In this document: piece after piece, positions 48,850 through 64,000 of the stretch
Numbering within the stretch: the stretch's first letter is position 1
Layout: the number at the start of each line of letters is the position of its first letter
DNA from: an uncultured Streptomycetaceae bacterium
GTDB taxonomy: Bacteria > Pseudomonadota > Gammaproteobacteria > Burkholderiales > SG8-41
Assembly: GCA_964521405.1 (NCBI GenBank)
Contig: CAZFRR010000176.1
Location: forward strand, 16,285-80,284
Direction: 5' to 3'
Length of the DNA stretch: 64,000 nucleotides
Position numbers and translations under genes: made by a program
Notes under the pieces: model-generated
Seen by the model: the letters and a program-made list of their open reading frames with translations, nothing else
Databases searched by the model: none
Told to the model about the DNA's origin: nothing

Positions 48850-49911
48850 CTATTCCGGCTTGAGGCCTGCGTCGCTGATCACCTTGCGCCAGCGTGCGGT
48901 TTCCTCCCGGATGAGCCGGGCGAAAGCCTCGGGAGTGAGCGCGCCGGGTTCGAAGGCCTGCTCGGCCAGCGCCTCGCGCAGTTCGGCAGAACCCAGAACG
49001 GAATTCAGCTCGCGGTTGAGCCGCGCGATCACCGTGCCGGGCGTGCGCGCCGGAACGAACACGCCTACCCATAGCGAGGTCTGATAGCCCGGAAACCCCG
49101 ATTCCGCGATGGTCGGCGTCTGGGGGAGCGCGGATAACCGTTGCGGGCTGGTGACGCCGATCGCGCGCAGCTTGCCGGCTCTTACGTGCGGCAACGAGGC
49201 CGCGATGGTGCTGATATTCAACTGGATGCGGCCCGCCAGCAGGTCGATCAACGCGAGGTTGGATCCCTTGTAGGGCACGTGCACCATGTCGATCCCGGCC
49301 GCCTTCTTGAGGAGTTCGCCCGAGAGATGCCCGACGCTGAAGTTGCCGACGGAGGCATAGAGCAGTTTGCCGGGATTGGCGCGGGCGTAGGCGACGAACT
49401 CCCTGACGTTGGATGCCGGCAGCGCGGGATTCACGGTCAGGAAATAGGGCGAGTCACCCAGCAGCGCGACCGGCGAGAAATCCCTGACCGGGTCGTAGCC
49501 CAGCTTGGGGTTCAGGATGTGGGCAAGGGCGTGGGTCGTCGTCGTGCCGAGCCCCCACGTATAGCCGTCGGGCGCGGCGCGTGCCACCGTTTCCACGCCG
49601 ATCGTGCCGCTCGCGCCGGACCGGTTGTCGACCACGATGGGCTGGCCGAGGCGCTCGCCCGCCCGCAGCGCGACGAGCCGCGCCACGACGTCGGTGGTCG
49701 TTCCCGGCGGAAAAGGGACGACGAAGCGGACCGGCCGTGATGGAAACGCCGGCTCTGCGGCATGCACCGCGCCCAACATCCACAACTGAACCGCCAAGAC
49801 GCCAAGCCCGCCAAGGAAAGCAGAATAGAACCGGATTGAAAAGACTCCACACGTTCTCAAGCCTTCTGCATTGTCGCTACTGGCTGAAATAGTGTAATTC
49901 ACGAAAATCAT
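48850..49911 (-). CDS. Bug/TctC-family tripartite tricarboxylate transporter substrate-binding protein (start uncertain)
   Basis: RPVRFVVPFPPGTTTDVVARL..VVDNRSGASGTIG are Bug-family blocks. The only plausible signal peptide (SIRFYSAFLGGLGVLAVQLWMLGAVHA) is encoded by the repeat arm at 49787-49821. Confidence 0.75.
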   Translation of the reverse strand: MIFVNYTISASSDNAEGLRTCGVFSIRFYSAFLGGLGVLAVQLWMLGAVHAAEPAFPSRPVRFVVPFPPGTTTDVVARLVALRAGERLGQPIVVDNRSGASGTIGVETVARAAPDGYTWGLGTTTTHALAHILNPKLGYDPVRDFSPVALLGDSPYFLTVNPALPASNVREFVAYARANPGKLLYASVGNFSVGHLSGELLKKAAGIDMVHVPYKGSNLALIDLLAGRIQLNISTIAASLPHVRAGKLRAIGVTSPQRLSALPQTPTIAESGFPGYQTSLWVGVFVPARTPGTVIARLNRELNSVLGSAELREALAEQAFEPGALTPEAFARLIREETARWRKVISDAGLKPE

Positions 49912-51695: not shown

Positions 51696-51785
51696 GTGAC
51701 TCGTGACTCGTTACTCGTTCTTCGTTATTCGTGTCTGGCGACTCGTGGGTGGATACCAGGAACGAGAAACGAGCAACGAGTCACG
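51696..51785. repeat. inverted heptamer arrays (GTKACTC-type x7 / ACGAGNA x4)
   Basis: gtgactc gtgactc gttactc gttcttc gttattc gtgtctg gcgactc pairs with ggaacgagaaacgagcaacgagtcacg. Confidence 0.85.
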
Positions 51786-51804
51786 GCGCGGTGGATCGGG
51801 ACGC

Positions 51805-53208
<1,404 letters not shown>

Positions 53209-53313
53209 TTACCACGCGGACCTTATCCGATTCATGGCCGCCATGTTCGGCTACAATCGCGTCACCCGGCCGGCGCGTTTCATGCGCGGACCCCGGAGTG
53301 AAAGAGGCTCATC

Positions 53314-54312
53314 ATGAAGCGGCAAATTCGGTGCGGGTGGCTCGCGCGAACCGTCCTGGTGTGCTGCATCTCGGCACTGGGTGCGGCGCAAGCGCCCGCT
53401 CAAACGTGGAGACCGGACAAGAACGTCGAGCTCATCATTCCGGGCGGCGCAGGGGGTGGCCAGGACCGCACCGCTCGCATCATGCAAAAAATCATGCTGG
53501 ACGGCCTCGTGCCCACCACCGTCACGGTAGTCAACCGGCCCGGCGGCGGCAGCAATCTTGCCTACATCCACTTGAACCAGTTCGCGGGGGACGGGCATTA
53601 CCTCGCGTCGGCGACGGCGACGCTCCTGACCAACTACCTACTGGGCACGAGCCCGCTCAATTACACGCATTTCACCCCCGTCAGCGTCCTCTACGGCGAG
53701 TACATCGGCTTCGCGGTGAGGGCCGACGGCCCGTTCAAGAGCGGCAGGGACATCATCGAGCGGATGAAGTCCGCGCCGGATTCAGTGTCGTTTGCTTTCG
53801 GCACCAGCGCCGGCAACGCCAACCACATCGGCATTGCATTGGTGTTGAAAGCGGCCGGTGTCGACCCCGCCCGGATGAAGACGGTGATCTTCAAGGCCTC
53901 GATCGAGGCCGCCAGCGCGCTGATGGGCGGGCACGTGGACGTGGTGGCGACGCCGATGTCCACCTATCTGCCGGTGCTGGGCACCGGCAAGCTGCGGATC
54001 GTCGCGATCGCCGCGCCGCAGCGCGTCGGCGGCAAGTTCGCCGACGTCCCGACCTGGAAGGAGCAAGACTATGACGCGGTGATGCCGAGCTTCCGCATGT
54101 TCATCGGCGCCAAGGGTCTCGACGCGCGGCAATTGCGCTACTGGGACGGCGTATTTGCCAAGCTCGCCGCCAGCGAGGAATGGAAGAAGGAGCTGGCCGC
54201 CAACGAGTGGCAAGGCTCGTACCTGAACAGCGCCGACAGCCTGCGTTACCTCGATGTCCAGGCGCAGTCCTACCGCAAGGTGCTGGCCGAGCTCGGGTTG
54301 GTAAAAAAATGA
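53314..54312 (+). CDS. Bug/TctC-family substrate-binding protein
   Basis: Signal peptide, then ELIIPGGAGGGQDRTAR..VVNRPGGGSNL. Confidence 0.85.
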   Translation: MKRQIRCGWLARTVLVCCISALGAAQAPAQTWRPDKNVELIIPGGAGGGQDRTARIMQKIMLDGLVPTTVTVVNRPGGGSNLAYIHLNQFAGDGHYLASATATLLTNYLLGTSPLNYTHFTPVSVLYGEYIGFAVRADGPFKSGRDIIERMKSAPDSVSFAFGTSAGNANHIGIALVLKAAGVDPARMKTVIFKASIEAASALMGGHVDVVATPMSTYLPVLGTGKLRIVAIAAPQRVGGKFADVPTWKEQDYDAVMPSFRMFIGAKGLDARQLRYWDGVFAKLAASEEWKKELAANEWQGSYLNSADSLRYLDVQAQSYRKVLAELGLVKK

Positions 54313-54346: not shown

Positions 54347-54484
54347 TTAACCGCGGAGGCGCAGAGACGCAGAGGTAACGCATCGAAAATCGATGAAACG
54401 ACGACTCAACGGATTGGGGAATCACAGAAGTTTTGAAAGTTGTAGAAATTTATGTTCTCCGCGTCTCAGCGCCTCCGCGGTTCA
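54347..54484. repeat. inverted repeat with 8-nt-unit arms (CGCRGAGR) and TTAACCGCGG / CCGCGGTTCA termini
   Basis: ttaaccgcggaggcgcagagacgcagaggtaacgc pairs with ttctccgcgtctcagcgcctccgcggttca. Confidence 0.85.
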
Positions 54485-54501
54485 TTTTTCAGGTTAAGGG
54501 C

Positions 54502-55200
54502 TCAAGTGGTATGGCGCTTGAGCAGATCGGTGTACTGCCGCGCGCCGCGAGCGATGATGTTGGTGGTGCGGACGTTCAGCCAGCGCACGCCGTTCGACAG
54601 CAGCCACGGCATGCGCTGCTCCCAGTTGGTGAGAACGTTGAGGCCGGCGGTCTTGCCGCCCTTGACGACCCGCGCGATCGCTTTTTCGAGCATCGCGGTG
54701 ACTTCCGGGTGTTCCGGCTGGCCCGGGAAACCCATGGCCAGCGCCACGTCGTTGACTCCGATGTTGATCACGTCGACGCCGGGCACCGCGGCGATCTCGT
54801 CTATCCTCTCGATTGCAGCCGGCGTCTCGACCATGATGATGACGATCTTGTCGGCGTGGTCCTTGGGCCGCGCGTAGCGAACGATGTCGACCATCCTGCG
54901 CGCGGTCGCCCCGTCCTCGACGTGCGGCACCATGATGCCGTCCACGCCGCAGTCGAAATAGCGCGTGATCAGCCCCGCGTCGTTCAACCACGGGCGCGCC
55001 ACCGAGGCGATGCCCGCCAGCCGCGCCGCGCGCGTCATCTCCTCGATACGCTCGAAATCGTAGCTCATGCGCTCGGCGTCTATCCACACCACGTCCAGGC
55101 CAAGCCCGCCCAGGAACTCGACCAGGCGCGGCGAGGTGAAATCCGGATTGAACATCGTGACCACCTGGCCGGCGGCCAGCTTCTGCTTGATCCTGTTCAT
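54502..55200 (-). CDS. HpcH/HpaI-family aldolase / citrate-lyase-beta-like protein
   Basis: LGLDVVWIDAE(R) and MVETPAAIERIDEIAAVPGVDVINIGVNDV are family blocks. Start at MNRIKQKL. Confidence 0.8.
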   Translation of the reverse strand: MNRIKQKLAAGQVVTMFNPDFTSPRLVEFLGGLGLDVVWIDAERMSYDFERIEEMTRAARLAGIASVARPWLNDAGLITRYFDCGVDGIMVPHVEDGATARRMVDIVRYARPKDHADKIVIIMVETPAAIERIDEIAAVPGVDVINIGVNDVALAMGFPGQPEHPEVTAMLEKAIARVVKGGKTAGLNVLTNWEQRMPWLLSNGVRWLNVRTTNIIARGARQYTDLLKRHTT

Positions 55201-55312
55201 TGTCGCTCCCGGTTCATTTGCGGCATTATAGGCAGCTCCGGCCCGGCGCATCGTCACCGACCAGAGTACGGACTCCGGGAATCGTCCAAATCAACACAAG
55301 GGAAAATGCCTC

Positions 55313-56656
55313 ATGACCGCCGCGAAAACGCTTGCCGAATTCGCCGTCAATCTGAAATACGAAGCCATCCCGCCGGAAGTCATCGAGCGCGCCAAGGACT
55401 GCATCATCGACACGGTCGGCGCCTGCGCCTTCGGCTCCCAGATGCCGTGGACGCAAATCGTCATCGAGCACGGCAAGCGCAACAGCGCGCCCGGTGAATG
55501 CAGCGTGTTCGGCACGCCCGTCAAGCTGCGCGCGCCGTTTGCCTGCCTCGCCAACGGCGCATCGGCGCACGCCTTCGAGCTCGATGCCCTGTGCGAGCCG
55601 AGCGTCGGCATCCATCCCGGCGCCGCGTTGTGCGTGCCGGGACTCGCCCCCTCGCAGGGCCGCAAGGGCAACGGGCGCGCGCTGCTCTCCGCCGTCGTCG
55701 CCGGCTACGAGGTGCTGTATCGCATCGGCGACGCGGCGAACCAGTCGATCGAGAAGGTCGGTTTCCATTCGCCGGGGGTGATCGGCGCGTTCGGCACCGC
55801 GGTGGTGATCGGCCGGCTGTTCGAGATCAGCGCGGAGAAGATGGCGCATGCGCTCGGCATCGCAGGCTCGCTCGGCTCCGGGCTGATGGAGTTTTCGAGG
55901 ACGGGCGGTATGGTGAAGCGCCTGCATCTCGGCCGCTCGGCGGAAAGCGGTTTCATGGCGGCGGTGCTGGCGCGAGACGGCTACACCGGTCCCGCGGGCG
56001 TATTCGAGGGCAAGTACGGCTTCCTCAACACGTTCTGCCGCAACGCGGAGCCGGCGCGCCTGACGCAGGAGCTCGGCACGACGTGGCACGTGATGAAGAC
56101 CAAGATCAAGCGCTATTCCTGCCACGCGACCTCACAGGTCCCGGTAACGCTCGCGCTCGACCTCAAGGCGCAGCACCAGCTCGCCGGTGACGACGTCGCG
56201 GGCATCACCATTGCCGCCAACGAGAAAACGGTGAGCCATCACGCCATCAACGAGCCGCAGGACATGACGATGGCGCAGTACAGCACGCCGTTCAACGTCG
56301 CGCTCGCGCTCTACCTGGACCCGATGGACCCGCGGTCGTTTTCCGAGAAGAGCCTTGCCGACCCGAAGATCCGCGCGCTGGCGAAGGGCGCCAAGGTCGA
56401 GCTCTACCCGGGCGCATCGAGCCCTGTGGCGCAGGATTGCCGGGTCACTTTCAAGTTGAAGAACGGCAAGGAAGTGACCGCGCAGGGCAACAATTTCAAG
56501 GGCACGCCGACGATGCCGCTCTCGCGCGACGAGCTGCGCGAGAAATTCCTCAAGCTCACCGCGCACAAGGACCGCGCGAAGGCGGACCGGCTGTTCTCGC
56601 AGCTTGCGGACGCGGAGAAGGTGGCGGACTTCAGCACCCTCGATTTCGCGCTCTAA
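55313..56656 (+). CDS. MmgE/PrpD-family protein (copy A)
   Basis: LAEFAVNLKYEAIPPEVIERAKDCIIDTVG.., HAFELD and KRYSCHA are PrpD-fold blocks. Confidence 0.85.
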   Translation: MTAAKTLAEFAVNLKYEAIPPEVIERAKDCIIDTVGACAFGSQMPWTQIVIEHGKRNSAPGECSVFGTPVKLRAPFACLANGASAHAFELDALCEPSVGIHPGAALCVPGLAPSQGRKGNGRALLSAVVAGYEVLYRIGDAANQSIEKVGFHSPGVIGAFGTAVVIGRLFEISAEKMAHALGIAGSLGSGLMEFSRTGGMVKRLHLGRSAESGFMAAVLARDGYTGPAGVFEGKYGFLNTFCRNAEPARLTQELGTTWHVMKTKIKRYSCHATSQVPVTLALDLKAQHQLAGDDVAGITIAANEKTVSHHAINEPQDMTMAQYSTPFNVALALYLDPMDPRSFSEKSLADPKIRALAKGAKVELYPGASSPVAQDCRVTFKLKNGKEVTAQGNNFKGTPTMPLSRDELREKFLKLTAHKDRAKADRLFSQLADAEKVADFSTLDFAL

Positions 56657-56689
56657 GCATTACTCCTGTAACAACCCCGGAGGCGGGCC

Positions 56690-57295
56690 ATGGCAAACAA
56701 GGAAACGATAGGCGGCGTCAGCGTTTATCTCCCGACGGGAGAATTAGCGACGGGCGCAGCGCACCTCGCGCCACGACTGAAGACGCTACGTGGCGCCCGC
56801 GTCGGCATACTCGACAACTGCAAAGAATTTGCCGACATCGTGCTGCGCGGCGTAGCCGAGGTCCTCGAGCGCGAATACGGCGCGCAGGTGAAATTCTGGC
56901 GCAAATCCTACCTGGGGATTCCTTCGCCTTTCGCGCAAGTGATGGCAAAGGAGTGCGACGCCGTCATCAACGGCGTCGGCCACTGAGGGTCCTCGACACC
57001 CTGGACCGCGCGTGACGCGGTCAACCTCGAGAACCTCGGAACCCCGACTGTAACTGTCATCAGCACCGCCTTCGCCGCGCTCGGGCAGGTGACCGGCGAG
57101 GGTGCGGGACACGCGAGCCTGCCCATCGTCGTCGTGCCGCACCCGGTCGGCGATCGTGACGAAAACCTCATCCGGCAGAGGGGCGCGGACATCGCGCGAG
57201 AGTGCGTGCGCGTGCTCACGACACCGGTCGAGGAGCTGTCACGCGAGTTCAAGGACAAGCGGCATCCGCTTCCTCGCGCCGTCATGCCCCGCTGA
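56690..57295 (+). CDS. candidate selenoprotein, UxxC-family variant (U-G-S-S), 201 codons with TGA at codon 99 (copy A)
   Basis: Track ORFs 56690-56986 and 57089-57295 are in the same frame and are separated only by the TGA at 56984-56986. Both halves align with copy B: LDN.KE.ADI upstream, U-G-S-x-T...D.V..E..G.P...AF...PHPV downstream. Confidence 0.6.
57004..57022 (+). promoter_or_regulatory. candidate bacterial SECIS hairpin (copy A)
   Basis: GACCGCG-cguga-CGCGGUC, a perfect 7-bp stem starting 17 nt after the TGA, with G and U in the apical loop. Confidence 0.45.
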
Positions 57296-57305
57296 ACGAG
57301 CGCCG

Positions 57306-58358
57306 ATGAAGCCTGAAATGACCCCGATTGCGGAGACCGACGAGTCCTACGACCGCATCAACGATGCCTTCTACGAGCGCGGCTGGACCGACGGCCTGCC
57401 TATTGTGCCGCCGACCGAGGCGCGGGTGCGGGCGATGCTGGCCGGCATGCCGGGGCGCGACGCGGACGACCTGGTGAGCGTGGTGCCGCCCAAGATGGGT
57501 CACGCGACGATGCGCCAGATCGCGATCAACGCCGTGATGGCGGGCTGCCGTCCGGAATACCTGCCGGTAGTGGTCGCTGCGCTGCAGGCGGTTTCCGAGC
57601 CCGCCTACGGGCTTTCCCACCGGCAGACGACGACGCACGCGGGCGCGCCGCTCATCATCGTCAACGGCCCGATCGCGAAGCGCCTGAAGATCAACGGCGG
57701 GCGCGGGTTATTCGGGCCGGGCTGGCGGGCCAACGCGACCATCGGCCGGGCGCTGCGGCTGGTCCTCGTCAACGTCGGCGGCGCGGGGCCGGACGTGGAC
57801 GCGTCGCAAACCGGCCATCCCGGCAAGTACACCTATTGCATCGCCGAGTTCGAGGATGCCAACCCCTGGGAGCCGCTGCACGTCGAGCGCGGCTTCCGGC
57901 GCGAGCAGAGCGTCGTCACCGTGGTGAACACGGAAGCGCCGCATAGCATGACGGAAAACGTGCAGACTGACCCGGTCGAAATCATGCGCACGTTCGCGTC
58001 CTCAATGGCGACGCTGGGCGTGAATAATCTCTATTCGCAGGGCCACCCGGTGCTGGTGCTGGGCCTCGAGCATGTGCACCATCTCTCGGCAGCGGGCTGG
58101 AGCAAGATGGACGTGAAGCGCGCGCTGTTCGAGATGGCCCGGCAGCCCTGGGGGCTCATGAAGAACCGCGGCAAGTCGAAGGGGCCGCGCTTCCCGGAAT
58201 TCGTCGACCAGAACGACGACAACTCCATGGTCCCGATCCTGTGGGAAGCGAAGGACCTCATATTGATCGTGGGCGGCGGCGCCGGCGGCAAGTCGATGTT
58301 CCTGCCGACGGCCGGCGGGCAGAGCCTGAGCGTGTCGAAGGCAATCGAAGAAAGATGA
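57306..58358 (+). CDS. conserved protein of unknown function, partner of the TGA gene (copy A, 350 aa)
   Basis: Paralog of 61884-62903. Shared blocks: W(T/S)DG.P.V.PTE.RVR.MLAG, MAGC(R/K)PEYLPV, IVNGP, FGPG(W/F)RAN..IGRA.RL.L.N.GG. The stop overlaps the next start (ATGA). Confidence 0.8.
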   Translation: MKPEMTPIAETDESYDRINDAFYERGWTDGLPIVPPTEARVRAMLAGMPGRDADDLVSVVPPKMGHATMRQIAINAVMAGCRPEYLPVVVAALQAVSEPAYGLSHRQTTTHAGAPLIIVNGPIAKRLKINGGRGLFGPGWRANATIGRALRLVLVNVGGAGPDVDASQTGHPGKYTYCIAEFEDANPWEPLHVERGFRREQSVVTVVNTEAPHSMTENVQTDPVEIMRTFASSMATLGVNNLYSQGHPVLVLGLEHVHHLSAAGWSKMDVKRALFEMARQPWGLMKNRGKSKGPRFPEFVDQNDDNSMVPILWEAKDLILIVGGGAGGKSMFLPTAGGQSLSVSKAIEER

Positions 58359-59383
58359 CGAACCTGGAGAATGGAACGACGAGGTGGAAGCGTGTGGGGC
58401 GCGTCGCATGCGTGCGGCTGGCGATCGCCGTGGCGCTTTGCGCGGTCGTGCCGGCGCCCGCCTTCGCGCAGTCCGGCTGGAAACCGGAAAGTACCGTGGA
58501 GCTGATCGTGCCGTCGGGGCCCGGCGGCGGCACCGATCACACGGCGCGGGTCGTGCAGCAGGTCCTGCAACAGAAGCAACTGGTGAGCGTGCCGGTGGCG
58601 GTGGTCAACAAGACCGGCGGCGGCGGAACGCTGGCGCTGTCCTACCTCAACCAGTTCCGGGGCAATGCGCACTACCTGCACCTGGCATCGGCGGTGCTGC
58701 TGACGAGCCACATCGTCGGCCGCACGCCCATCAACTACACGGATCTCACGCCGGTTGCGCTGCTGCAGAGCGAATACGTGGTGCTGGCGGTCAAAGCCGA
58801 TTCATCGCTCAAGAACGCCCATGACCTGGTGGCGCGCCTGAAGCAGGATCCCGCCGCGCTGAGTATTTCCGTGGGCACCAGCTTCGGCGGCGCCAACCAT
58901 TCCGCGATCGCCGCCGTGGCGCGTAGCGCAGGCATCGATTCCCGCAAGCTCAAGACGGTGGTATTCAAGTCATCGTCGGAAGCGGCGCTCGCCGCGCTCG
59001 GCGGGCACGTGGACGTTGTGTCAGCGAGCGCGTCCCAGGTGCTCACCCACGTCCGGTCGGGCGCTCTGCGTCTCATCGGCGTGACGTCACCGGCGAGGCT
59101 GAAAGGGGACCTCGCCACGGTGCCGACGCTGAAGGAGCAGGGCATCAACGTCGAGGTCAACAACTTCCGCATGCTGGTCGGACCGAAGGACCTCACCACG
59201 CCGCAGCTCGCCTATTGGGACCAGGTTCTCGCGAAGATGGTGCAGGCCGAGGAATGGAAGAAGGACCTCGAACGGGATGTGGTCGAGGACACCTACCTGA
59301 ACAGCCGCGACATCCGCAAGTATCTCGACTCCGAATACGCCGAGCTGAAGAGCCTGCTGATCGAGATGGGGCTCGCCAGGTAG
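58355..59383 (+). CDS. Bug/TctC-family substrate-binding protein
   Basis: Signal peptide ...VVPAPAFAQ, then ELIVPSGPGGGTDHTAR..VVNKTGGGGTLA. Confidence 0.85.
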   Translation: MTNLENGTTRWKRVGRVACVRLAIAVALCAVVPAPAFAQSGWKPESTVELIVPSGPGGGTDHTARVVQQVLQQKQLVSVPVAVVNKTGGGGTLALSYLNQFRGNAHYLHLASAVLLTSHIVGRTPINYTDLTPVALLQSEYVVLAVKADSSLKNAHDLVARLKQDPAALSISVGTSFGGANHSAIAAVARSAGIDSRKLKTVVFKSSSEAALAALGGHVDVVSASASQVLTHVRSGALRLIGVTSPARLKGDLATVPTLKEQGINVEVNNFRMLVGPKDLTTPQLAYWDQVLAKMVQAEEWKKDLERDVVEDTYLNSRDIRKYLDSEYAELKSLLIEMGLAR

Positions 59384-59425
59384 CGTAGCGGCGCGGATTG
59401 CCCGCGCCCCGATAAATCATCCGGG

Positions 59426-60823
59426 ATGGACATGAAAACCAACGATGCCAGGGAGCCGCTCGCCGCTCATGTCGCGGCGTTCGTGACGAAAACGCGCCAT
59501 GCCGGCCTGCCTGCCGAGACGGCGCGCGTCGTGAAGAAGCACATGCTCGATACGCTTGCGTGCGGCCTCGCCGGCGTGCCCGCGGAGGGCAGCGACATCG
59601 TGCGGCGCTACATCGAGCGCCTGGGATGCAGTGGCAGCGCGACCGTGTTCGGCACGGCGCAGCAGGCGGCCCCGCGGTTCGCGGCCCTGGCCAACGCCAC
59701 CGCGATGCACGCCGACGACTTCGACGACACTTACCATCCGACGCGATTTCACCCCACGGCCCCCGTGCTGTCCGCCGTGTGTGCCGTGGGCGAGGAAAAC
59801 GGCGCTTCCGGTGCCGAGGTGCTGGCGGCAGTCGCGGTCGGCACCGAGGTCTCCCTGAAACTCAGTCACACCATCGACCAGCAGCATTACCTGCGCGGCT
59901 TCCACATGACCAGCACCTGCGGTGTGTTCGGCGCCACAGCGGGCGTATGCAACCTGCTCCGGCTGTCCACTGATGCCACAACACGCGCCATCGGTATCGC
60001 CGGCAGCCACTCCGCCGGAGTGCGCGAGAACTTCGGCACGATGGTGAAGCCCTTGCACTCGGGGCGCGCCGCTGAGAACGCCGTGTTTGCGGCCTCACTC
60101 GCGGCAATGGATTTCACGGCGTCGCCGACGATCCTCGAGGGCGACCGCGGCTATTTCATGACGGGCGCCGGGGGCTACAATGCCGACGAGCTGGTCGGCA
60201 AACTCGGCAACCCGTGGAACTACGTTGCCAGGGGCGTGGCGATCAAGCCGTATCCCTGCGGCAACCTCCAGCAGCCGGCCATGGACAAGTTGCGGGATCT
60301 CGTCGTGGAACACGACATCAAGCCGGGGCAGGTCGAGCGCCTCGCGGTGAAGAGCCACCGCCTGATGCCGCTCAACCTCACTTACCACCGGCCGGTGACG
60401 GGGCTGGAAGGCAAGTTCAGCATGGAATTCAGCCTCGCCTCGATCCTCGTGCTACGGCGCGCCGGCCTCGCCGAGTACAGCGATGCGGTCGTGAACCGCC
60501 CCGACATCCAGGATGCGATAGGCAGGATCGACTACACCGTGTTCAGCGACGAGGAAGCCGAGGCGAAGGGCTACACGCTGCTCACCACCTTCCTCGACAT
60601 CAAGTTGAAGGACGGGCGGACCCTTTCCGCGCGGGTGGACGCGGCCAAGGGCAGTGCCACGCTTCCCATGAGCGAGGAAGACGTCGCGCGCAAGTTCCGC
60701 GAGTGCGCGGAGTTCGCAGGCTTGCCCGGCGGGAGGGCCGGGAAGATCATCGATCTCGTTCTCAAGCTCGAGGATGTGCGCGACATACGCGACCTGACGC
60801 GGCTCATCGGGACGGCACACTGA
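59426..60823 (+). CDS. MmgE/PrpD-family protein (copy B)
   Basis: LAAHVAAFVTKTRHAGLPAETARVVKKHMLDTLACG.., HADDFDD and IKPYPCG are PrpD-fold blocks. Confidence 0.85.
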   Translation: MDMKTNDAREPLAAHVAAFVTKTRHAGLPAETARVVKKHMLDTLACGLAGVPAEGSDIVRRYIERLGCSGSATVFGTAQQAAPRFAALANATAMHADDFDDTYHPTRFHPTAPVLSAVCAVGEENGASGAEVLAAVAVGTEVSLKLSHTIDQQHYLRGFHMTSTCGVFGATAGVCNLLRLSTDATTRAIGIAGSHSAGVRENFGTMVKPLHSGRAAENAVFAASLAAMDFTASPTILEGDRGYFMTGAGGYNADELVGKLGNPWNYVARGVAIKPYPCGNLQQPAMDKLRDLVVEHDIKPGQVERLAVKSHRLMPLNLTYHRPVTGLEGKFSMEFSLASILVLRRAGLAEYSDAVVNRPDIQDAIGRIDYTVFSDEEAEAKGYTLLTTFLDIKLKDGRTLSARVDAAKGSATLPMSEEDVARKFRECAEFAGLPGGRAGKIIDLVLKLEDVRDIRDLTRLIGTAH

Positions 60824-60881
60824 GCCTGCAATGCGGGGGCCGGATCGACAGCGTGCCCAGGCGCCAGCAGAGGAAAGAAAA

Positions 60882-61868
60882 ATGAACGCGAGCTTCAAAT
60901 TCAAGTCAGCCGCCCGCATCGTTTTCATGGCGTTTGCCTGCTGCGGCGTGTCCGGCGTGCAGGCGCAGGCGTATCCGTCCAAAATCGTGCGACTGGTTCT
61001 GCCGTTCCCGCCGGGTGGCGGCACGGACGTGGTTGGTCGCCTGCTGGCGCAGAAGCTCGGCCAGGCGCTGGGCCAGCAGGTTATCGTGGACAATCGCGCG
61101 GGCGCCGGCGGGCGCATTGGCGCCGAGCTGGTCGCGAGATCAGCGCCGGACGGATACACGCTGCTCCTCGCCGGCAGCAGCGTCATGGCAACGGCGCCGG
61201 CGCTGTATGCGAAGCTGCCGTTCGACATGCCGAAGGACTTCGCCCCGATATCGCTGGTGGCATACACTGCATACGTGCTGGTCGTGCATCCGTCCGTACC
61301 CGCGAGAATGGTGAAGGAACTGATCGCGCTCGCGAAATCGCGGCCCGGCCGGCTCACGTTCGCGTCGTCGGGCGCCGGCGGAGCGGCGCATCTTTCGGGG
61401 GAGCTGTTCAGCGCGATGGCCGGCGTGAAAATGATCCACGTGCCGTACAAGGGGAGCTCTCCGGGAACGCTGTCGGTGATCGCCGGCGAGACCGACCTGA
61501 TGTTCAGCAATACCGTAGCGGCACTGCCTTCGGTGAAGAGCGGCCGGCTGCGGACGCTAGGCGTCACCGCTCTACGGCGCTCCACGATCATGCCCGATGT
61601 GCCGACGGTGGCCGAATCGGGGCTTCCGGGGTTCGAGGTGCAGCAGAACTACGGTTTGCTGGCGCCGGCGGGCACGCCGCGGGAAATCGTGATCCGGCTG
61701 AACCAGGAGGTTGGTAAGGTGATGCGGACGGAGGACGCGAGGAGCAGGCTCCTCGTGGACGGCTCGGAGGCCAAGTTCAGCACTCCCGAGGAACTGGAGA
61801 AGATGATCACGGCCGAGATCGCAAAGTGGTCGAAGGTCATCAAGCAGGCGGGCATCAAGGAAGAGTGA
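60882..61868 (+). CDS. Bug/TctC-family substrate-binding protein
   Basis: Signal peptide MNASFKFKSAARIVFMAFACCGVSGVQA, then VRLVLPFPPGGGTDVVGRL..VVDNRAGAGGRIG. Confidence 0.85.
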   Translation: MNASFKFKSAARIVFMAFACCGVSGVQAQAYPSKIVRLVLPFPPGGGTDVVGRLLAQKLGQALGQQVIVDNRAGAGGRIGAELVARSAPDGYTLLLAGSSVMATAPALYAKLPFDMPKDFAPISLVAYTAYVLVVHPSVPARMVKELIALAKSRPGRLTFASSGAGGAAHLSGELFSAMAGVKMIHVPYKGSSPGTLSVIAGETDLMFSNTVAALPSVKSGRLRTLGVTALRRSTIMPDVPTVAESGLPGFEVQQNYGLLAPAGTPREIVIRLNQEVGKVMRTEDARSRLLVDGSEAKFSTPEELEKMITAEIAKWSKVIKQAGIKEE

Positions 61869-61883
61869 GGTGGAGGAGGCGAT

Positions 61884-62903
61884 TTGAGCGCTGTGGTTGA
61901 TCCATTCGAGTTTTTCCTGGAAAAGGAGTGGTCGGACGGGTATCCGGTCGTCACGCCGACCGAAGAGCGCGTCCGCTGGATGCTGGCCGGGACGCGGCGT
62001 GACCCGGACGAGCTGGTGGGCCTGATACCGCCGGCGATGGAGCCGGCGACGGTTCGCACCGTCGCCATCCACGCGCTGATGGCAGGCTGCAAGCCGGAAT
62101 ACCTGCCGGTCGCGCTGGGCGCGGTGAAGCACATCATTCGCGAGGAATTCAATATGGGCGGCGTGCAGTGCACAATGCACGGCGTTGCGCCGCTGATGAT
62201 CGTGAACGGCCCCTATGCGCAGACCATCGGGCTGCACGGCGGCGCCGGCTGCTTCGGTCCGGGGTTTCGCGCCAATACCAGCATCGGCCGCGCGATCCGG
62301 CTGATGCTGCTCAATCTCGGCGGCGGCATATCGGGACGCGCCTCGGCGACCGTGTTCAGCTCGCCGTTCCGCTATACCGCCTGCATTACCGAAAACATGG
62401 CATCGAGCCCATGGGAGAGCCTCGCGGTGTCGCGAGGCTATTCGCCGCACGACAACGTGATCACGTTCGCGATGGCGGAGAACCCGCGCCTGCACTTCGA
62501 CGACGTCAGCACCGAGCCCGAGCGGCTGCTGCGGGGGATCGGTGACGCCATGACGGCGCCCGGCTCGTGGAACATGTGGTTCGTTTCGGACATGGTCGTC
62601 GCGATGAGCCCGCAACACGCGAAGTTGTGCGCGGACGCCGGCATGAGCCGCGCCGACGTGGTCGGGCGCCTGAGCCAGCTCGCCGTGCGCCGGCAATCCG
62701 GGGTGAAGTACGGCGGCAACTGGCGGCCCGAGCGCGCACGAGCGATGGGCATCGACCCCGACGACGAGAATGCCCTCATCAAGGCCGTCAAGGACCCGGG
62801 GCGGCTGCATCTCATCGTCGCGGGCGGCAACGGCCCGATCACCGCCGTGTGCCACGGCTGGAACGAGACCAGCCGTGCAGTGCACGGCACCTACGAGGTA
62901 TGA
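61884..62903 (+). CDS. conserved protein of unknown function, partner of the TGA gene (copy B, 339 aa)
   Basis: Paralog of 57306-58358 (see the shared blocks there). TTG start at 61884 or GTG at 61893. Confidence 0.8.
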   Translation: MSAVVDPFEFFLEKEWSDGYPVVTPTEERVRWMLAGTRRDPDELVGLIPPAMEPATVRTVAIHALMAGCKPEYLPVALGAVKHIIREEFNMGGVQCTMHGVAPLMIVNGPYAQTIGLHGGAGCFGPGFRANTSIGRAIRLMLLNLGGGISGRASATVFSSPFRYTACITENMASSPWESLAVSRGYSPHDNVITFAMAENPRLHFDDVSTEPERLLRGIGDAMTAPGSWNMWFVSDMVVAMSPQHAKLCADAGMSRADVVGRLSQLAVRRQSGVKYGGNWRPERARAMGIDPDDENALIKAVKDPGRLHLIVAGGNGPITAVCHGWNETSRAVHGTYEV

Positions 62904-62984
62904 GGGCGGAGGGATGAGGGATGCGCGATGCGGGTTTCTCTCATCTCGTATCCCGGATCTCGTATCCCGTATCACGATTCACGC
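62902..62984. repeat. inverted heptamer arrays (GAGGGAT-type x5 / GTATCCC-type x6)
   Basis: gagggcg gagggat gagggat gcgcgat gcgggtt pairs with tcatctc gtatccc ggatctc gtatccc gtatcac gattcac. The element starts on the upstream TGA. Confidence 0.8.
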
Positions 62985-62997
62985 TTTTTATTAGGAA

Positions 62998-63534
62998 ATG
63001 AACATGACGAATGACCTGGGCTTCATCGACCCCACCGCGGGCGGCAACAAGGCGAGGATCCCGCTGGCGCCGCGGCCGATGGACCTCGCCGGCAAGGTGG
63101 TGGGCCTCCTCGATAACACCAAGGAGCAGGCCGATATTATTTTCGAAACCGTCGCGGACGTCCTGCGCAGCCGCTACGGAGTGGCTAAAGTGATCATCCG
63201 GCGCAAGGAGGCCTTCTCCCGGCCCGCGACCGAAGCGCTGCTGAACGAGATGGCGAAGGAGGTGCAGGTGGCCGCCGCCGCCCTCGGCGGGTGAGGGTCC
63301 TGCACGTTGTGCAGTGTGCACGACACGGTGGAGTTCGAGAAACGCGGCATACCCGCCACGATGTTTCTCACGCAGGCGTTCAAGAACGCGGCGGTCTATC
63401 AATTCCGCGGCAAGGGCATGGACGGGCACCCGTTCATCGAGCTGCCGCATCCGGTGAGCAACCTCACGCCCGGCGAGATGCGCGCGCTCACGCTGAAATA
63501 CGTCGAGCAGATGGTCAGGCAGCTGACTGCGTGA
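62998..63534 (+). CDS. candidate selenoprotein with U-G-S-C motif, 178 codons with TGA at codon 99 (copy B)
   Basis: Track ORFs 62998-63294 and 63307-63534 share a frame. The junction reads ...AAALGG-TGA-GSCTLCSVHDTVEFEKRGIPATMFLTQAF...LPHPVSN. U-x-x-C resembles a CxxC redox motif. Confidence 0.65.
63300..63321 (+). promoter_or_regulatory. candidate SECIS region (copy B): two alternative hairpins
   Basis: CUGCAC-guu-GUGCAG (63300-63314) or GUGCA-gug-UGCAC (63309-63321). They lie 6-15 nt after the TGA, and the apical loops contain G and U. Confidence 0.4.
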
Positions 63535-63565: not shown

Positions 63566-64000
63566 ATGGGAAAGCCGACATCAGTCCGTGCAGTAGCAAA
63601 ACCGTCGAACCGGTTTTATTTAGTTTTGCACTCCACGGCGATCGTTGCTCTCGCCGCGCTTCCAATCCCGATGACGAGTCCGAGTGCGGTGGCGCAAAAC
63701 TACCCTTCGCGGCCGCTGCGGGTGGTGGTGCCGTTCGCGCCGGGCGGTGCGGTGGATCTCGTCGCGCGGACCGTCGCGCCGAAGCTCTCCGAGGCGCTGG
63801 GCCAGCCGGTGGTGGTGGACAACCGCGGCGGCGCCGGGGGCACGATAGGCACCGATATCGTCGCGAAGGCGCGGCCGGACGGTCACACGCTGCTCGTAGC
63901 CAGCATGGGCGTTGCGGTCAACGCGGTGCTCTATCCGAAGCTGCCGTACGACACGCTGAAGGACCTCGCGCCGGTCACCTCGCTGGGCGAGCAGCCCAAC
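63566..64000 (+). CDS. Bug/TctC-family substrate-binding protein (5' part; runs off the window end)
   Basis: Not in the ORF track (no stop). My translation: MGKPTSVRAVAKPSNRFYLVLHSTAIVALAALPIPMTSPSAVAQNYPSRPLRVVVPFAPGGAVDLVARTVAPKLSEALGQPVVVDNRGGAGGTIG... Confidence 0.75.
   Translation, partial: MGKPTSVRAVAKPSNRFYLVLHSTAIVALAALPIPMTSPSAVAQNYPSRPLRVVVPFAPGGAVDLVARTVAPKLSEALGQPVVVDNRGGAGGTIGTDIVAKARPDGHTLLVASMGVAVNAVLYPKLPYDTLKDLAPVTSLGEQPN

What the first reader, a model, noticed from the sequence alone, without database searches (positions are those of the whole stretch)
56690..57295. In-frame TGA at codon 99 with conserved downstream reading frame and a perfect hairpin: candidate selenoprotein, U-G-S-S variant
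The ORF ends ...AVINGVGH-TGA, and the same frame then stays open for 102 more codons: GSSTPWTARDAVNLENLGTPTVTVISTAF...VVPHPVGD...

This downstream segment aligns with the segment downstream of the TGA in the paralog at 62998-63534 (G-S-x-T, D.V..E..G.P, AF, PHPV). Selection has therefore kept the frame across the TGA in two diverged copies.

A perfect 7-bp stem (57004-57022) starts 17 nt after the TGA, which is where bacterial SECIS elements lie.

Here the residue three positions after U is Ser, not Cys. This copy would therefore lack the resolving Cys present in copy B.
Basis: partly seen in the sequence, partly recalled or inferred. Interest (0 to 1): 0.8.

Follow-up and report, generated by a model that had tools for sequence, protein, structure and literature searches.

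The report
Selenoprotein gene, UGSS variant of UGSC
The in-frame TGA at 56984 is almost certainly a selenocysteine codon in a real 200-residue protein of the known but uncharacterised UGSC family, in a subgroup that lacks the usual partner cysteine, is cut in two in every database record I saw, and always sits beside one unnamed partner gene.

Summary
Window 56690-57295 (+) is one gene: 98 codons, TGA (56984-56986), 102 more codons, stop.

- **Family.** It matches Pfam UGSC (PF24696, 145 bits) but falls below NCBI's naming cutoff (103 against 125 bits).
- **Orthologs.** 48 species-level genomes, mostly Burkholderiales MAGs, carry the ortholog. All have TGA at this column, never TAA or TAG. Downstream protein identity is 73%. 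Relatives in Xanthobacteraceae have TGC or TGT (Cys) there.
- **SECIS.** The hairpin at 57004-57022 coincides with six codons whose synonymous sites are frozen (heterozygosity 0.007 against a gene median of 0.465). Cys-form genes lack both the hairpin and the freeze.
- **Motif.** Ser at +3 is universal in this clade. Sec forms also have Ala where every Cys form has a second Cys (position 129).
- **Partner.** A 350-aa gene with no Pfam or NCBIfam match (57306-58358) follows immediately in every locus long enough to show it. Proteins that fuse the UGSC and partner domains exist in both orders.
- **Gaps.** The Sec machinery could not be checked, because only 64 kb is available. The function is unknown.

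Verdict: a new variant of a known kind, of moderate interest.

The parts
56690..56983 (+). UGSS selenoprotein gene, codons 1-98 (ends ...CDAVINGVGH)
   Evidence: Database proteins from relatives stop exactly here.
56984..56986 (+). UGA read as selenocysteine (residue 99)
   Evidence: TGA in 49 of 49 Sec-form orthologs and TGC/TGT in Cys-form relatives. Ordinary terminal stops in these genes use TGA, TAG and TAA.
56987..57295 (+). Codons 100-201 plus the stop. GSSTPWTARDA... is the best-conserved part of the protein.
   Evidence: The first in-frame start codon after the UGA is 35 codons downstream (read).
57004..57022 (+). SECIS-like hairpin: 7-bp stem and CGUGA loop. In most orthologs it is a 5-bp core, a bulged A and 3 further pairs.
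   Evidence: It is the global minimum of synonymous variation in the gene. It is absent from Cys-form genes.
57306..58358 (+). Partner gene A: 350 aa, no Pfam, NCBIfam or PDB match. Conserved Cys81 and Cys178.
   Evidence: Immediately downstream of the UGSS gene in every locus long enough to show it. Fusion proteins with the UGSC domain exist.
55313..56656 (+). MmgE/PrpD-family gene upstream in the same orientation
   Evidence: It recurs beside the Cys-form gene pairs and in about a fifth of the Sec-form loci.
58241..59383 (+). TctC (Bug) solute-binding protein gene. The true start is probably after 58358.
   Evidence: TctC genes are frequent near the gene pair in other loci.
59426..60823 (+). 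Second MmgE/PrpD-family gene
60831..61868 (+). TctC gene
61884..62903 (+). Partner gene B, 39% identical to partner A
62998..63534 (+). Copy B: a canonical UGSC selenoprotein gene with UGA at 63292-63294 and a hairpin at 63306-63324
   Evidence: One search gives 131.3 bits, above the 125 cutoff. One search shows the hairpin GUUGUGCA-GUG-UGCACGAC.

Best explanation
Window 56690-57295 is a single gene for a protein of about 200 residues in which UGA-99 is decoded as selenocysteine.

**Decoding (inferred from the known bacterial pathway).** The hairpin at 57004-57022 lies inside the coding sequence, and its apical loop starts 24 nt after the UGA. It would act as the SECIS that recruits SelB carrying Sec-tRNA(Sec).

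**The protein.** It belongs to the UGSC family (Pfam PF24696). A model of a 49%-identical Cys homolog shows a flavodoxin-like (beta-alpha)5 fold. The Sec column sits just after strand 3 and just ahead of helix 3, which is a typical place for a reactive nucleophile.

**The clade.** Here the motif is U-G-S-S. The +3 cysteine of the canonical U-G-S-C is replaced by Ser. The Sec forms also lack the second cysteine (position 129) that every Cys-form relative has. The Sec therefore has no obvious partner cysteine near it in its own chain.

**Proposed function (inferred).** The protein works as one subunit of a two-protein enzyme with the product of the next gene (57306-58358). That partner supplies the rest of the active site, probably including the thiol that pairs with the selenol (Cys81 or Cys178). 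This resembles the way the Sec subunits PrdB and GrdB work with a separate catalytic subunit. The recurrent MmgE/PrpD and TctC neighbours suggest a di- or tricarboxylate substrate.

The confidence given here applies mainly to the selenocysteine decoding (about 0.9). The two-subunit working model is about 0.5.
For: **Sec decoding**
- 49 of 49 Sec-form genes have TGA at the column, never TAA or TAG. Their terminal stops are TGA 32, TAG 9, TAA 6, so the genetic code is standard.
- 118 full-length relatives and L046 have Cys at the column.
- The segment after the UGA is more conserved than the segment before it (73% against 57% amino-acid identity). Its differences concentrate at third codon positions.
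- There is no in-frame start codon for 35 codons after the UGA (read).

**SECIS**
- Codons +7 to +12 are ACC GCG CGT GAC GCG GYC in essentially all 46 aligned genes. Flanking invariant residues use 2-4 codons each.
- The 6-codon window over the hairpin has synonymous heterozygosity 0.007. The gene median is 0.465, and the next lowest non-overlapping window is 0.152.
- The only stem changes are C to U, which keep G-U pairs.
- Cys-form genes have no hairpin, vary synonymously at these codons and encode S-V-I instead of T-A-R.
- Other paralog types carry a hairpin at the same place with a GU-containing loop. They show one compensatory C-G to G-C change and two changes that pass through wobble pairs.

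**Family**
- Pfam PF24696 scores 145 bits.
- The only secondary NCBIfam hits that recur are the GrdB/GrdH/GrdF/PrdB selenoprotein-B models, in up to 10 of 38 members. They always align over the region that holds the Sec column.

**Fold**
- The AF2 model has pLDDT 88. Its PDB matches are flavodoxin-like domains.

**Partner**
- It is adjacent in every locus long enough to show it, at 62-93% identity.
- It is also adjacent in Cys-form genomes and lies close by in the two Chloroflexi loci.
- UGSC-partner fusion proteins were confirmed in 6 of 6 tested. Partner-UGSC fusions end exactly at the Sec column.
- One protein fuses the partner domain to a thioredoxin-reductase-like domain.
- Partner Cys81 is conserved in 153 of 157 diverse domains and Cys178 in 139 of 159.
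Against: - No tRNA-Sec and no selA, selB or selD signature lies in the 64-kb window or in the 54 related loci. This is uninformative rather than negative, because the rest of the genome is unseen.
- No Rfam SECIS family matches.
- The gene scores below NCBIfam's UGSC cutoff.
- The lower stem predicted for the window copy is not supported across orthologs.
- The link to GrdB rests on weak scores (E of 5e-4 to 0.1), and no GrdB or PrdB structure was available for comparison.
- The partner model is only moderate (pLDDT 75) and has no structural relative.
- Partner Cys81 is Ala in 6 of 26 close orthologs.
- The Ala129/Cys129 split separates only two clades, so it may reflect a single evolutionary event.
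- No experiment exists for any member of the family.
Confidence: 0.88

Rival explanations
1. UGA-99 is bypassed without selenocysteine. A near-cognate tRNA would insert Trp, Cys or Arg, and the hairpin would act only as a read-through stimulator.
For: The Sec machinery was not found in the sequence available. Rfam SECIS models do not match.
Against: - The homologous column is Cys in 118 relatives. This is the classical Sec/Cys pairing.
- A second gene of the same family in the window passes NCBI's selenoprotein model and has its own UGA and hairpin.
- The family is an established selenoprotein family (PMC2398784).
- The hairpin's distance from the UGA and its GU-containing apical loop fit the bacterial SECIS pattern as I recall it from the literature.
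Confidence: 0.05
2. The gene is a pseudogene, or really ends at codon 98, and the open frame downstream is an accident of high GC content.
For: Gene callers and databases treat it this way: about 25 fragment proteins end at ...INGVGH, and JGI splits it into two ORFs. Long open frames are common in 64% GC DNA.
Against: - 47 of 49 orthologs keep exactly 102 downstream codons.
- The downstream part is the more conserved half and shows a third-position excess of differences.
- The stop is always TGA.
- Cys-form relatives are full length.
Confidence: 0.02
3. Two separate polypeptides are made: the 98-residue N-terminal part, and a C-terminal part produced by re-initiation after the UGA.
For: JGI calls a second ORF of 81 residues in the downstream half.
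Against: - The 34 codons directly after the UGA contain no start codon, yet they are the most conserved stretch of the protein.
- In the model the Sec column lies in the middle of a single (beta-alpha)5 domain, between strand 3 and helix 3.
- Cys forms are single chains.
Confidence: 0.03

Closest known systems
UGSC-containing protein / UGSC family (seleno)protein (Pfam PF24696, NCBIfam NF041046; Zhang & Gladyshev, PMC1976440 and PMC2398784)
   Same: - The same domain (145 bits on Pfam).
- Sec or Cys at the same column, after a G-x-G-x turn.
- A hairpin just downstream of the UGA.
- Function unknown.
- The published 'UGSC/Unknown_1 fusion' probably refers to the partner domain found here. I could not read that figure.
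   Different: - The motif is U-G-S-S, not U-G-S-C (UxxC in all published tables).
- It scores below NCBI's cutoff (103 against 125 bits), so the annotation pipeline does not recode the UGA.
- The hairpin has a different sequence and lies 6 nt further downstream than in copy B.
- The predicted fold is flavodoxin-like, not the thioredoxin-like fold suggested in 2008.
Selenoprotein B subunits of the glycine/betaine/sarcosine/D-proline reductases (GrdB, GrdH, GrdF, PrdB; TIGR01917, TIGR01918)
   Same: - Weak but consistent profile similarity over about 100 residues around the Sec column.
- A small Sec-bearing unit that works with a separately encoded catalytic subunit.
- In PrdB the Sec acts as a nucleophile on the substrate (PMC11229817).
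   Different: - Scores are far below family cutoffs (14-19 bits against 602).
- The partner here shows no similarity to the pyruvoyl proenzymes PrdA or GrdE.
- The hosts are Burkholderiales MAGs, not amino-acid-fermenting clostridia.
- No GrdA-like or PrdC-like genes were seen nearby.
UxxS / CxxS single-nucleophile redox motifs (for example ArsC form 1, listed as UxxS in PMC2398784)
   Same: Sec is followed by Ser at +3, so any selenenyl intermediate must be resolved by a thiol from elsewhere.
   Different: The fold and family are unrelated. The resemblance is in the motif only.

Membership tests
UGSC family (Pfam PF24696) | Score above the Pfam gathering threshold over the whole domain | tested here: met
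   145.4 bits against a cutoff of 25, covering profile positions 2-171 of 172 (with U written as C).
UGSC family (seleno)protein (NCBIfam NF041046, equivalog) | Score at or above the curated cutoff of 125 bits | tested here: not met
   103.4 bits for this gene. The best score among the 38 clade members scanned was 114.3. Copy B reaches 131.3.
UGSC family | Sec or Cys at the first position of the motif | tested here: met
   TGA in 49 of 49 Sec forms and Cys in 118 of 118 Cys forms.
UGSC family | Cys at +3 (U-G-S-C, published as UxxC) | tested here: not met
   Ser in 46 of 46 Sec forms and 117 of 118 Cys forms of this clade.
Bacterial selenoprotein genes | In-frame UGA with the coding frame conserved across it and Cys-containing homologs at that column | tested here: met
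Bacterial selenoprotein genes | SECIS stem-loop shortly after the UGA. As I recall the bSECISearch model: apical loop 16-37 nt from the UGA, with a G among the first loop bases. | tested here: met
   The loop CGUGA starts 24 nt after the UGA. Synonymous sites are frozen over the hairpin only. No Rfam SECIS model matches. The numerical criteria come from memory, not from a predictor run.
Bacterial selenoprotein genes | selA, selB, selC (tRNA-Sec) and selD in the same genome | not testable with these tools
   None was found in the 64-kb window (plus Pfam scans 15, 51, 81) or in the 54 related loci. Whole genomes could not be read.
Bacterial selenoprotein genes | Selenium actually incorporated into the protein | not testable with these tools
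   This needs 75Se labelling or mass spectrometry.
GrdB/PrdB selenoprotein B family (TIGR01917/TIGR01918) | Score above the family cutoff and the full-length architecture of about 430 or 240 residues | tested here: not met
   14-19 bits against 602. Only the C-terminal ~100 positions of the profile align.
GrdB/PrdB selenoprotein B family | Adjacent pyruvoyl proenzyme (GrdE or PrdA) | tested here: not met
   The adjacent partner has no Pfam, NCBIfam or PDB match at all.
Thioredoxin-fold UxxC oxidoreductases | Thioredoxin-like fold | tested here: not met
   The model of Cys homolog P0001 (pLDDT 88) is a (beta-alpha)5 sandwich. Its PDB matches are flavodoxin-like domains, lumazine synthase and CheY.

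The most novel reading that the evidence does not exclude
The UGSS protein and the unnamed partner together form a previously unrecognised two-subunit selenoenzyme. It would be widespread in soil and freshwater Burkholderiales.

In this reading a lone selenocysteine, with no cysteine of its own chain near it, acts as a substrate-attacking nucleophile in the manner of PrdB or GrdB. It would not be one half of a UxxC redox pair. The partner's conserved Cys81/Cys178, Asp29, Arg148 and Glu181 would complete the active site. The substrate would be a carboxylate delivered by the neighbouring TctC and MmgE/PrpD genes.

The exact swap of Sec99+Ala129 for Cys99+Cys129 would then show that selenium removes the need for a resolving cysteine.
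Probability: 0.3. Interest if true: 0.65.

Novelty: new variant of a known kind. Interest (0 to 1): 0.45.

Why it matters
- **Annotation gap.** A selenoprotein subfamily present in at least 48 species-level genomes is cut at the UGA in every database record I saw. It scores just under NCBI's family cutoff, so the annotation pipeline does not recode the UGA. Lowering the cutoff, or adding a sub-model, would repair the annotation.
- **A testable hypothesis for an old unknown.** The UGSC family has been among the most abundant environmental selenoprotein families since 2008, and no function is known. The strict pairing with a partner domain gives a concrete two-component hypothesis. The partner family has 5381 clusters at 50% identity, no Pfam or NCBIfam model, and fusions to the UGSC domain in both orders.
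- **A natural Sec/Cys comparison.** Sec forms carry Ala at position 129 and Cys forms carry Cys. This bears on whether selenium removes the need for a resolving cysteine.
- **RNA shaping protein.** The T-A-R residues of the Sec forms are encoded by the hairpin itself, so this is a clear case of an RNA element dictating protein sequence.

Tried and rejected
- **Rfam.** The whole window at gathering thresholds, and both UGA regions at E up to 10, gave no SECIS family.
- **PDB by sequence.** Nothing matched the UGSS protein, the clade profile or the partner.
- **PDB by fold, partner model.** No match better than E=0.37 and TM 0.22.
- **PDB by fold, UGSS homolog.** Only generic flavodoxin-like matches, and no GrdB or PrdB structure to compare with.
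- **Sec machinery.** I ran ARAGORN and my own rough motif patterns for SelA, SelB and SelD on the window and on 54 loci, and found nothing. This is uninformative for a 64-kb sample.
- **Source genome.** An exact-protein look-up of the neighbouring PrpD gene found nothing on record.
- **Window protein with U written as C.** I modelled the 49%-identical Cys homolog P0001 instead, and no model coordinates were available to measure distances.
- **Lower stem.** The longer lower stem that RNAfold draws for the window copy pairs in only 37-70% of orthologs at its variable positions, so I do not count it as part of the element.
- **Cys172 and Cys89 as resolving residues.** From the model's topology they lie far from the Sec: at the far end of helix 5 and just before strand 3, the opposite end of that strand from the Sec. 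This is inferred from secondary structure only.
- **GOS Figure S1A.** It is held only as an image, so the identity of 'Unknown_1' with the partner domain remains an inference.
- **Spurious ORFs.** The + strand ORFs at 54433-55497 and 51703-53301 are not genes (GC3 0.58-0.63). The real genes lie on the minus strand.

Full report
**1. The observation**

- An ATG at 56690, preceded by GGAGG, opens a frame that reaches TGA at 56984-56986, which is codon 99.
- The same frame continues for 102 codons to a TGA stop at 57293-57295.
- A 7-bp stem with a 5-nt loop (GACCGCG-CGUGA-CGCGGUC) lies at 57004-57022, 17 nt after the TGA.
- The second copy at 62998-63534 has a TGA at codon 99 as well. It aligns with this gene both before the TGA (E=4e-14) and after it (E=7e-11).

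**2. Family**

With the TGA written as Cys, the protein matches Pfam PF24696 'UGSC family' at 145 bits. It matches NCBIfam NF041046 'UGSC family (seleno)protein' at 103.4 bits, below that model's cutoff of 125. Copy B scores 131.3 and passes. The sub-threshold score probably explains why this subgroup goes unrecognised in annotation.

**3. Relatives**

A protein search returned about 25 fragments that all end at ...INGVGH, exactly at the stop. It also returned two full-length proteins with Cys at that column.

A scan of one genome per species found 53 loci, nearly all in Burkholderiales or Betaproteobacteria MAGs. In 48 of them the ortholog reads ...GVGH-TGA-GSSTPWTARDA... and continues to ...PLPxAVMPR.
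- The codon is TGA in all 49 genes including the window, never TAA or TAG.
- Their true stops are TGA 32, TAG 9 and TAA 6, so the genetic code is standard.
- 47 of 49 have exactly 102 codons between the two stops.
- One Xanthobacteraceae locus (L046) has TGC at the column.

A profile search then found more than 2000 family members. The top 120 are almost all 198-residue Cys forms with the motif C-G-S-S, and every one that carries a name is called 'hypothetical protein'.

**4. Selection across the TGA**

The part after the TGA is more conserved than the part before it (72.6% against 57.3% mean pairwise identity). Pairwise differences per site at codon positions 1/2/3 are 0.205/0.19/0.517, the signature of purifying selection on a translated sequence. 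The first in-frame start codon after the TGA is 35 codons downstream, beyond the most conserved stretch. A separately initiated second protein cannot explain this.

**5. The hairpin is conserved as RNA**

In 46 aligned Sec-form genes, codons +7 to +12 are ACC (45 of 46), GCG (44/44), CGT (46/46), GAC (46/46), GCG (46/46) and GCC (38/38). Invariant residues on either side use two to four codons each.
- A sliding 6-codon window of synonymous heterozygosity has its global minimum exactly there: 0.007 against a median of 0.465. The next lowest non-overlapping window is 0.152.
- The only stem substitutions are C to U, which keep a G-U pair.
- In most orthologs residue +12 is Ala rather than Val. 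The hairpin is then a 5-bp core, a bulged A and three more pairs. The window's perfect 7-bp stem is a variant of this.
- The longer lower stem that RNAfold draws for the window copy is not maintained across orthologs.

Cys-form genes provide the control. Their DNA has no such hairpin, varies synonymously at the same codons, and encodes S-V-I where Sec forms encode T-A-R. The RNA element appears to dictate three residues of the Sec-form protein.

Other paralog types in the window and the loci have a hairpin at the same place, each with a GU-containing apical loop.
- Canonical UGSC: GUUGUGCA-GUG-UGCACGAC.
- A U-G-A-C type: GUCGGGCA-GUC-UGCUCGAC.
- Chloroflexi: GUCGUGGA-GUG-UCCACGAC.
- Between them there is one fully compensatory C-G to G-C change and two changes that pass through wobble pairs.

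From what I recall of the bacterial SECIS model, the expected features are an apical loop 16-37 nt after the UGA, a G early in the loop, and SelB recognising a GU in the loop. All of these hairpins fit, but I could not run a SECIS predictor. Rfam's SECIS families do not match.

**6. The missing cysteines**

Ser at +3 is found in 46 of 46 Sec forms and 117 of 118 Cys forms. It is therefore a property of the whole clade.

A second difference is sharper. Position 129 is Cys in 118 of 118 Cys forms and Ala in 46 of 46 Sec forms. In an AlphaFold model of the Cys homolog P0001 (49% identical, pLDDT 88), the fold is a (beta-alpha)5 sandwich.
- The Sec column comes just after strand 3, just ahead of helix 3.
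- Position 129 lies at the start of helix 4 after the neighbouring strand, so it probably sits next to the Sec column. This is inferred from topology, because no coordinates were available.
- Cys172 is invariant in Sec forms, and Cys89 is present in 45 of 46. By the same reasoning both lie far from the active edge.

The split at position 129 separates two clades, so it may reflect one evolutionary event.

PDB matches to the model are generic flavodoxin-like domains. This does not fit the thioredoxin-like fold proposed in 2008.

**7. The partner**

The next gene (57306-58358, 350 aa, 10 nt after the stop) has no Pfam, NCBIfam or PDB sequence match. Its model (pLDDT 75) has no structural relative.
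- A gene of this family follows the UGSS gene immediately in every locus long enough to show it, at 62-93% identity.
- It also follows the Cys-form genes and lies close to the UGSC genes of the two Chloroflexi loci.
- A 39%-identical paralog (61884-62903) precedes copy B.
- The family is large: at least 8000 clusters at 90% identity and 5381 at 50%.

Among its diverse members, several architectures point to a shared functional unit.
- Proteins of about 530-565 residues carry a complete UGSC domain fused in front of the partner domain (6 of 6 tested).
- Proteins of about 415-450 residues carry only the part of the UGSC domain that follows the Sec column. This is what results when a gene caller restarts after a UGA.
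- Four proteins of about 460 residues carry the partner domain followed by the first half of a UGSC domain. Each ends exactly at the G-x-G-D (or A-x-A-D) turn just before the Sec column.
- One protein fuses the partner to a thioredoxin-reductase-like domain.

Across 157 or more diverse partner domains, the conserved residues include Cys81 (153/157), Cys178 (139/159), Asp29, Asn143, Arg148 and Glu181. This is an enzyme-like pattern. The published 'UGSC/Unknown_1 fusion' is probably this domain, but the figure is held only as an image.

**8. Context**

The region 55313-63534 reads PrpD, UGSS, partner A, TctC, PrpD, TctC, partner B, UGSC, all on the + strand. A terminator-like hairpin lies at 63598-63617. 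An HpcH/HpaI aldolase gene runs divergently at 54502-55257.

Cys-form loci read PrpD, UGSC, partner, PrpD. TctC genes are frequent near the Sec-form pairs, and PrpD occurs in about a fifth of them. This hints at a carboxylate substrate but proves nothing.

**9. Relation to GrdB and PrdB**

The only other NCBIfam models that members of the clade touch repeatedly are the selenoprotein-B models of the glycine, betaine, sarcosine and proline reductases, in up to 10 of 38 members. The hits always fall over the region that holds the Sec column, with E-values from 5e-4 to 0.1. This supports a distant relationship and a working analogy, in which a small Sec subunit serves a separate catalytic subunit (PMC11229817). 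It does not establish membership.

**10. What is missing**

No tRNA-Sec and no matches to my rough sel-gene motif patterns are in the window or the related loci. The remainder of the genome could not be examined. No member of the family has been studied experimentally. The eight papers that mention it list it as a UxxC selenoprotein of unknown function, and none mentions a U-G-S-S form.

**11. Verdict**

My confidence that UGA-99 encodes selenocysteine is about 0.9. My confidence in the two-subunit working model is about 0.5, and the 0.88 I give for the best explanation rests mainly on the first.

The gene belongs to a known selenoprotein family, so this is not a new kind of system. It is a distinct and unannotated variant of that family:
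- a U-G-S-S motif;
- a hairpin with its own sequence and position;
- no cysteine of its own chain near the Sec.

The obligatory partner domain, which no family library describes, it shares with the rest of the family.

Noticed in passing
window 62998-63534 (UGA 63292-63294, hairpin 63306-63324): A second selenoprotein gene of the canonical U-G-S-C type. It passes NCBIfam's cutoff, has an 8-bp hairpin with a GUG loop 11 nt after the UGA, and is preceded rather than followed by its partner paralog (61884-62903).
   Followed up: partly
L006 8045 and L008 1046: A third paralog type, reading ...GVGD-TGA-GACSSGS (U-G-A-C). It has its own hairpin GUCGGGCA-GUC-UGCUCGAC and a partner-like gene next to it.
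   Followed up: partly
proteins P0270, P0282, P0283, P0288, P0305, P0392: Proteins of about 710-740 residues match the partner domain in two or three stretches. They look like tandem duplications of the partner domain. P0270, the one scanned, has no Pfam match.
   Followed up: no
protein P0411: The partner domain (residues 27-352) is fused to a thioredoxin-reductase-like pyridine nucleotide-disulphide oxidoreductase domain (387-677). This hints that the partner receives reducing equivalents. It is a single example.
   Followed up: partly
fusion proteins P0278, P0294, P0296, P0345, P0390: Some UGSC-partner fusions have neither Cys nor Sec at the motif column (for example EIGGS, DIGAA, WSGVY). 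The UGSC domain can therefore persist without its nucleophile.
   Followed up: no
alignment A2, partner residue 81: Cys81 is conserved in 97% of diverse partner domains, yet it is Ala in 6 of 26 close orthologs linked to UGSS genes. Cys178 is invariant in those 26.
   Followed up: no
window 54433-55497 (+) and 51703-53301 (+): These long + strand ORFs are not genes (GC3 0.58-0.63, no family match). The real genes are on the minus strand: an HpcH/HpaI aldolase at 54502-55257 and an adenylosuccinate-lyase-like gene at 51805-53205.
   Followed up: yes
window 48850-49911, 53314-54312, ~58400-59383, 60831-61868, ~63650-64000: Four TctC (Bug-family) solute-binding genes, confirmed by Pfam, lie within 16 kb. 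A fifth apparent one at ~63650-64000 was read by eye only. This density is typical of Burkholderiales and is repeated in most related loci.
   Followed up: partly
L047 6001-6596 and L051 6001-6276: L047 has a frameshift in the N-terminal half of the UGSS gene, on a 1.18-Mb contig whose naming suggests a long-read assembly, so it may be a sequencing error. L051 carries a shortened copy that joins the N-terminal part to ...LPFVVAPHPVGD and lacks the Sec region.
   Followed up: no
record titles (for example L021, L025, L007, L044): Several MAG records are labelled 'Bordetella parapertussis', 'Streptomycetaceae' or 'Chitinophaga pinensis'. They carry the same Burkholderiales-type gene pair at 66-75% identity, so the organism labels look unreliable.
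   Followed up: no
L011 5027-5122: ARAGORN reports a 96-nt 'tRNA-???' with a two-base anticodon, inside a TctC-like gene. It is probably a false positive, but its length is in the tRNA-Sec range.
   Followed up: no
L054 9393-10004: JGI gene calls split the Sec-form gene into two ORFs (100 and 81 residues). Both hit PF24696, which illustrates the annotation artefact directly.
   Followed up: yes
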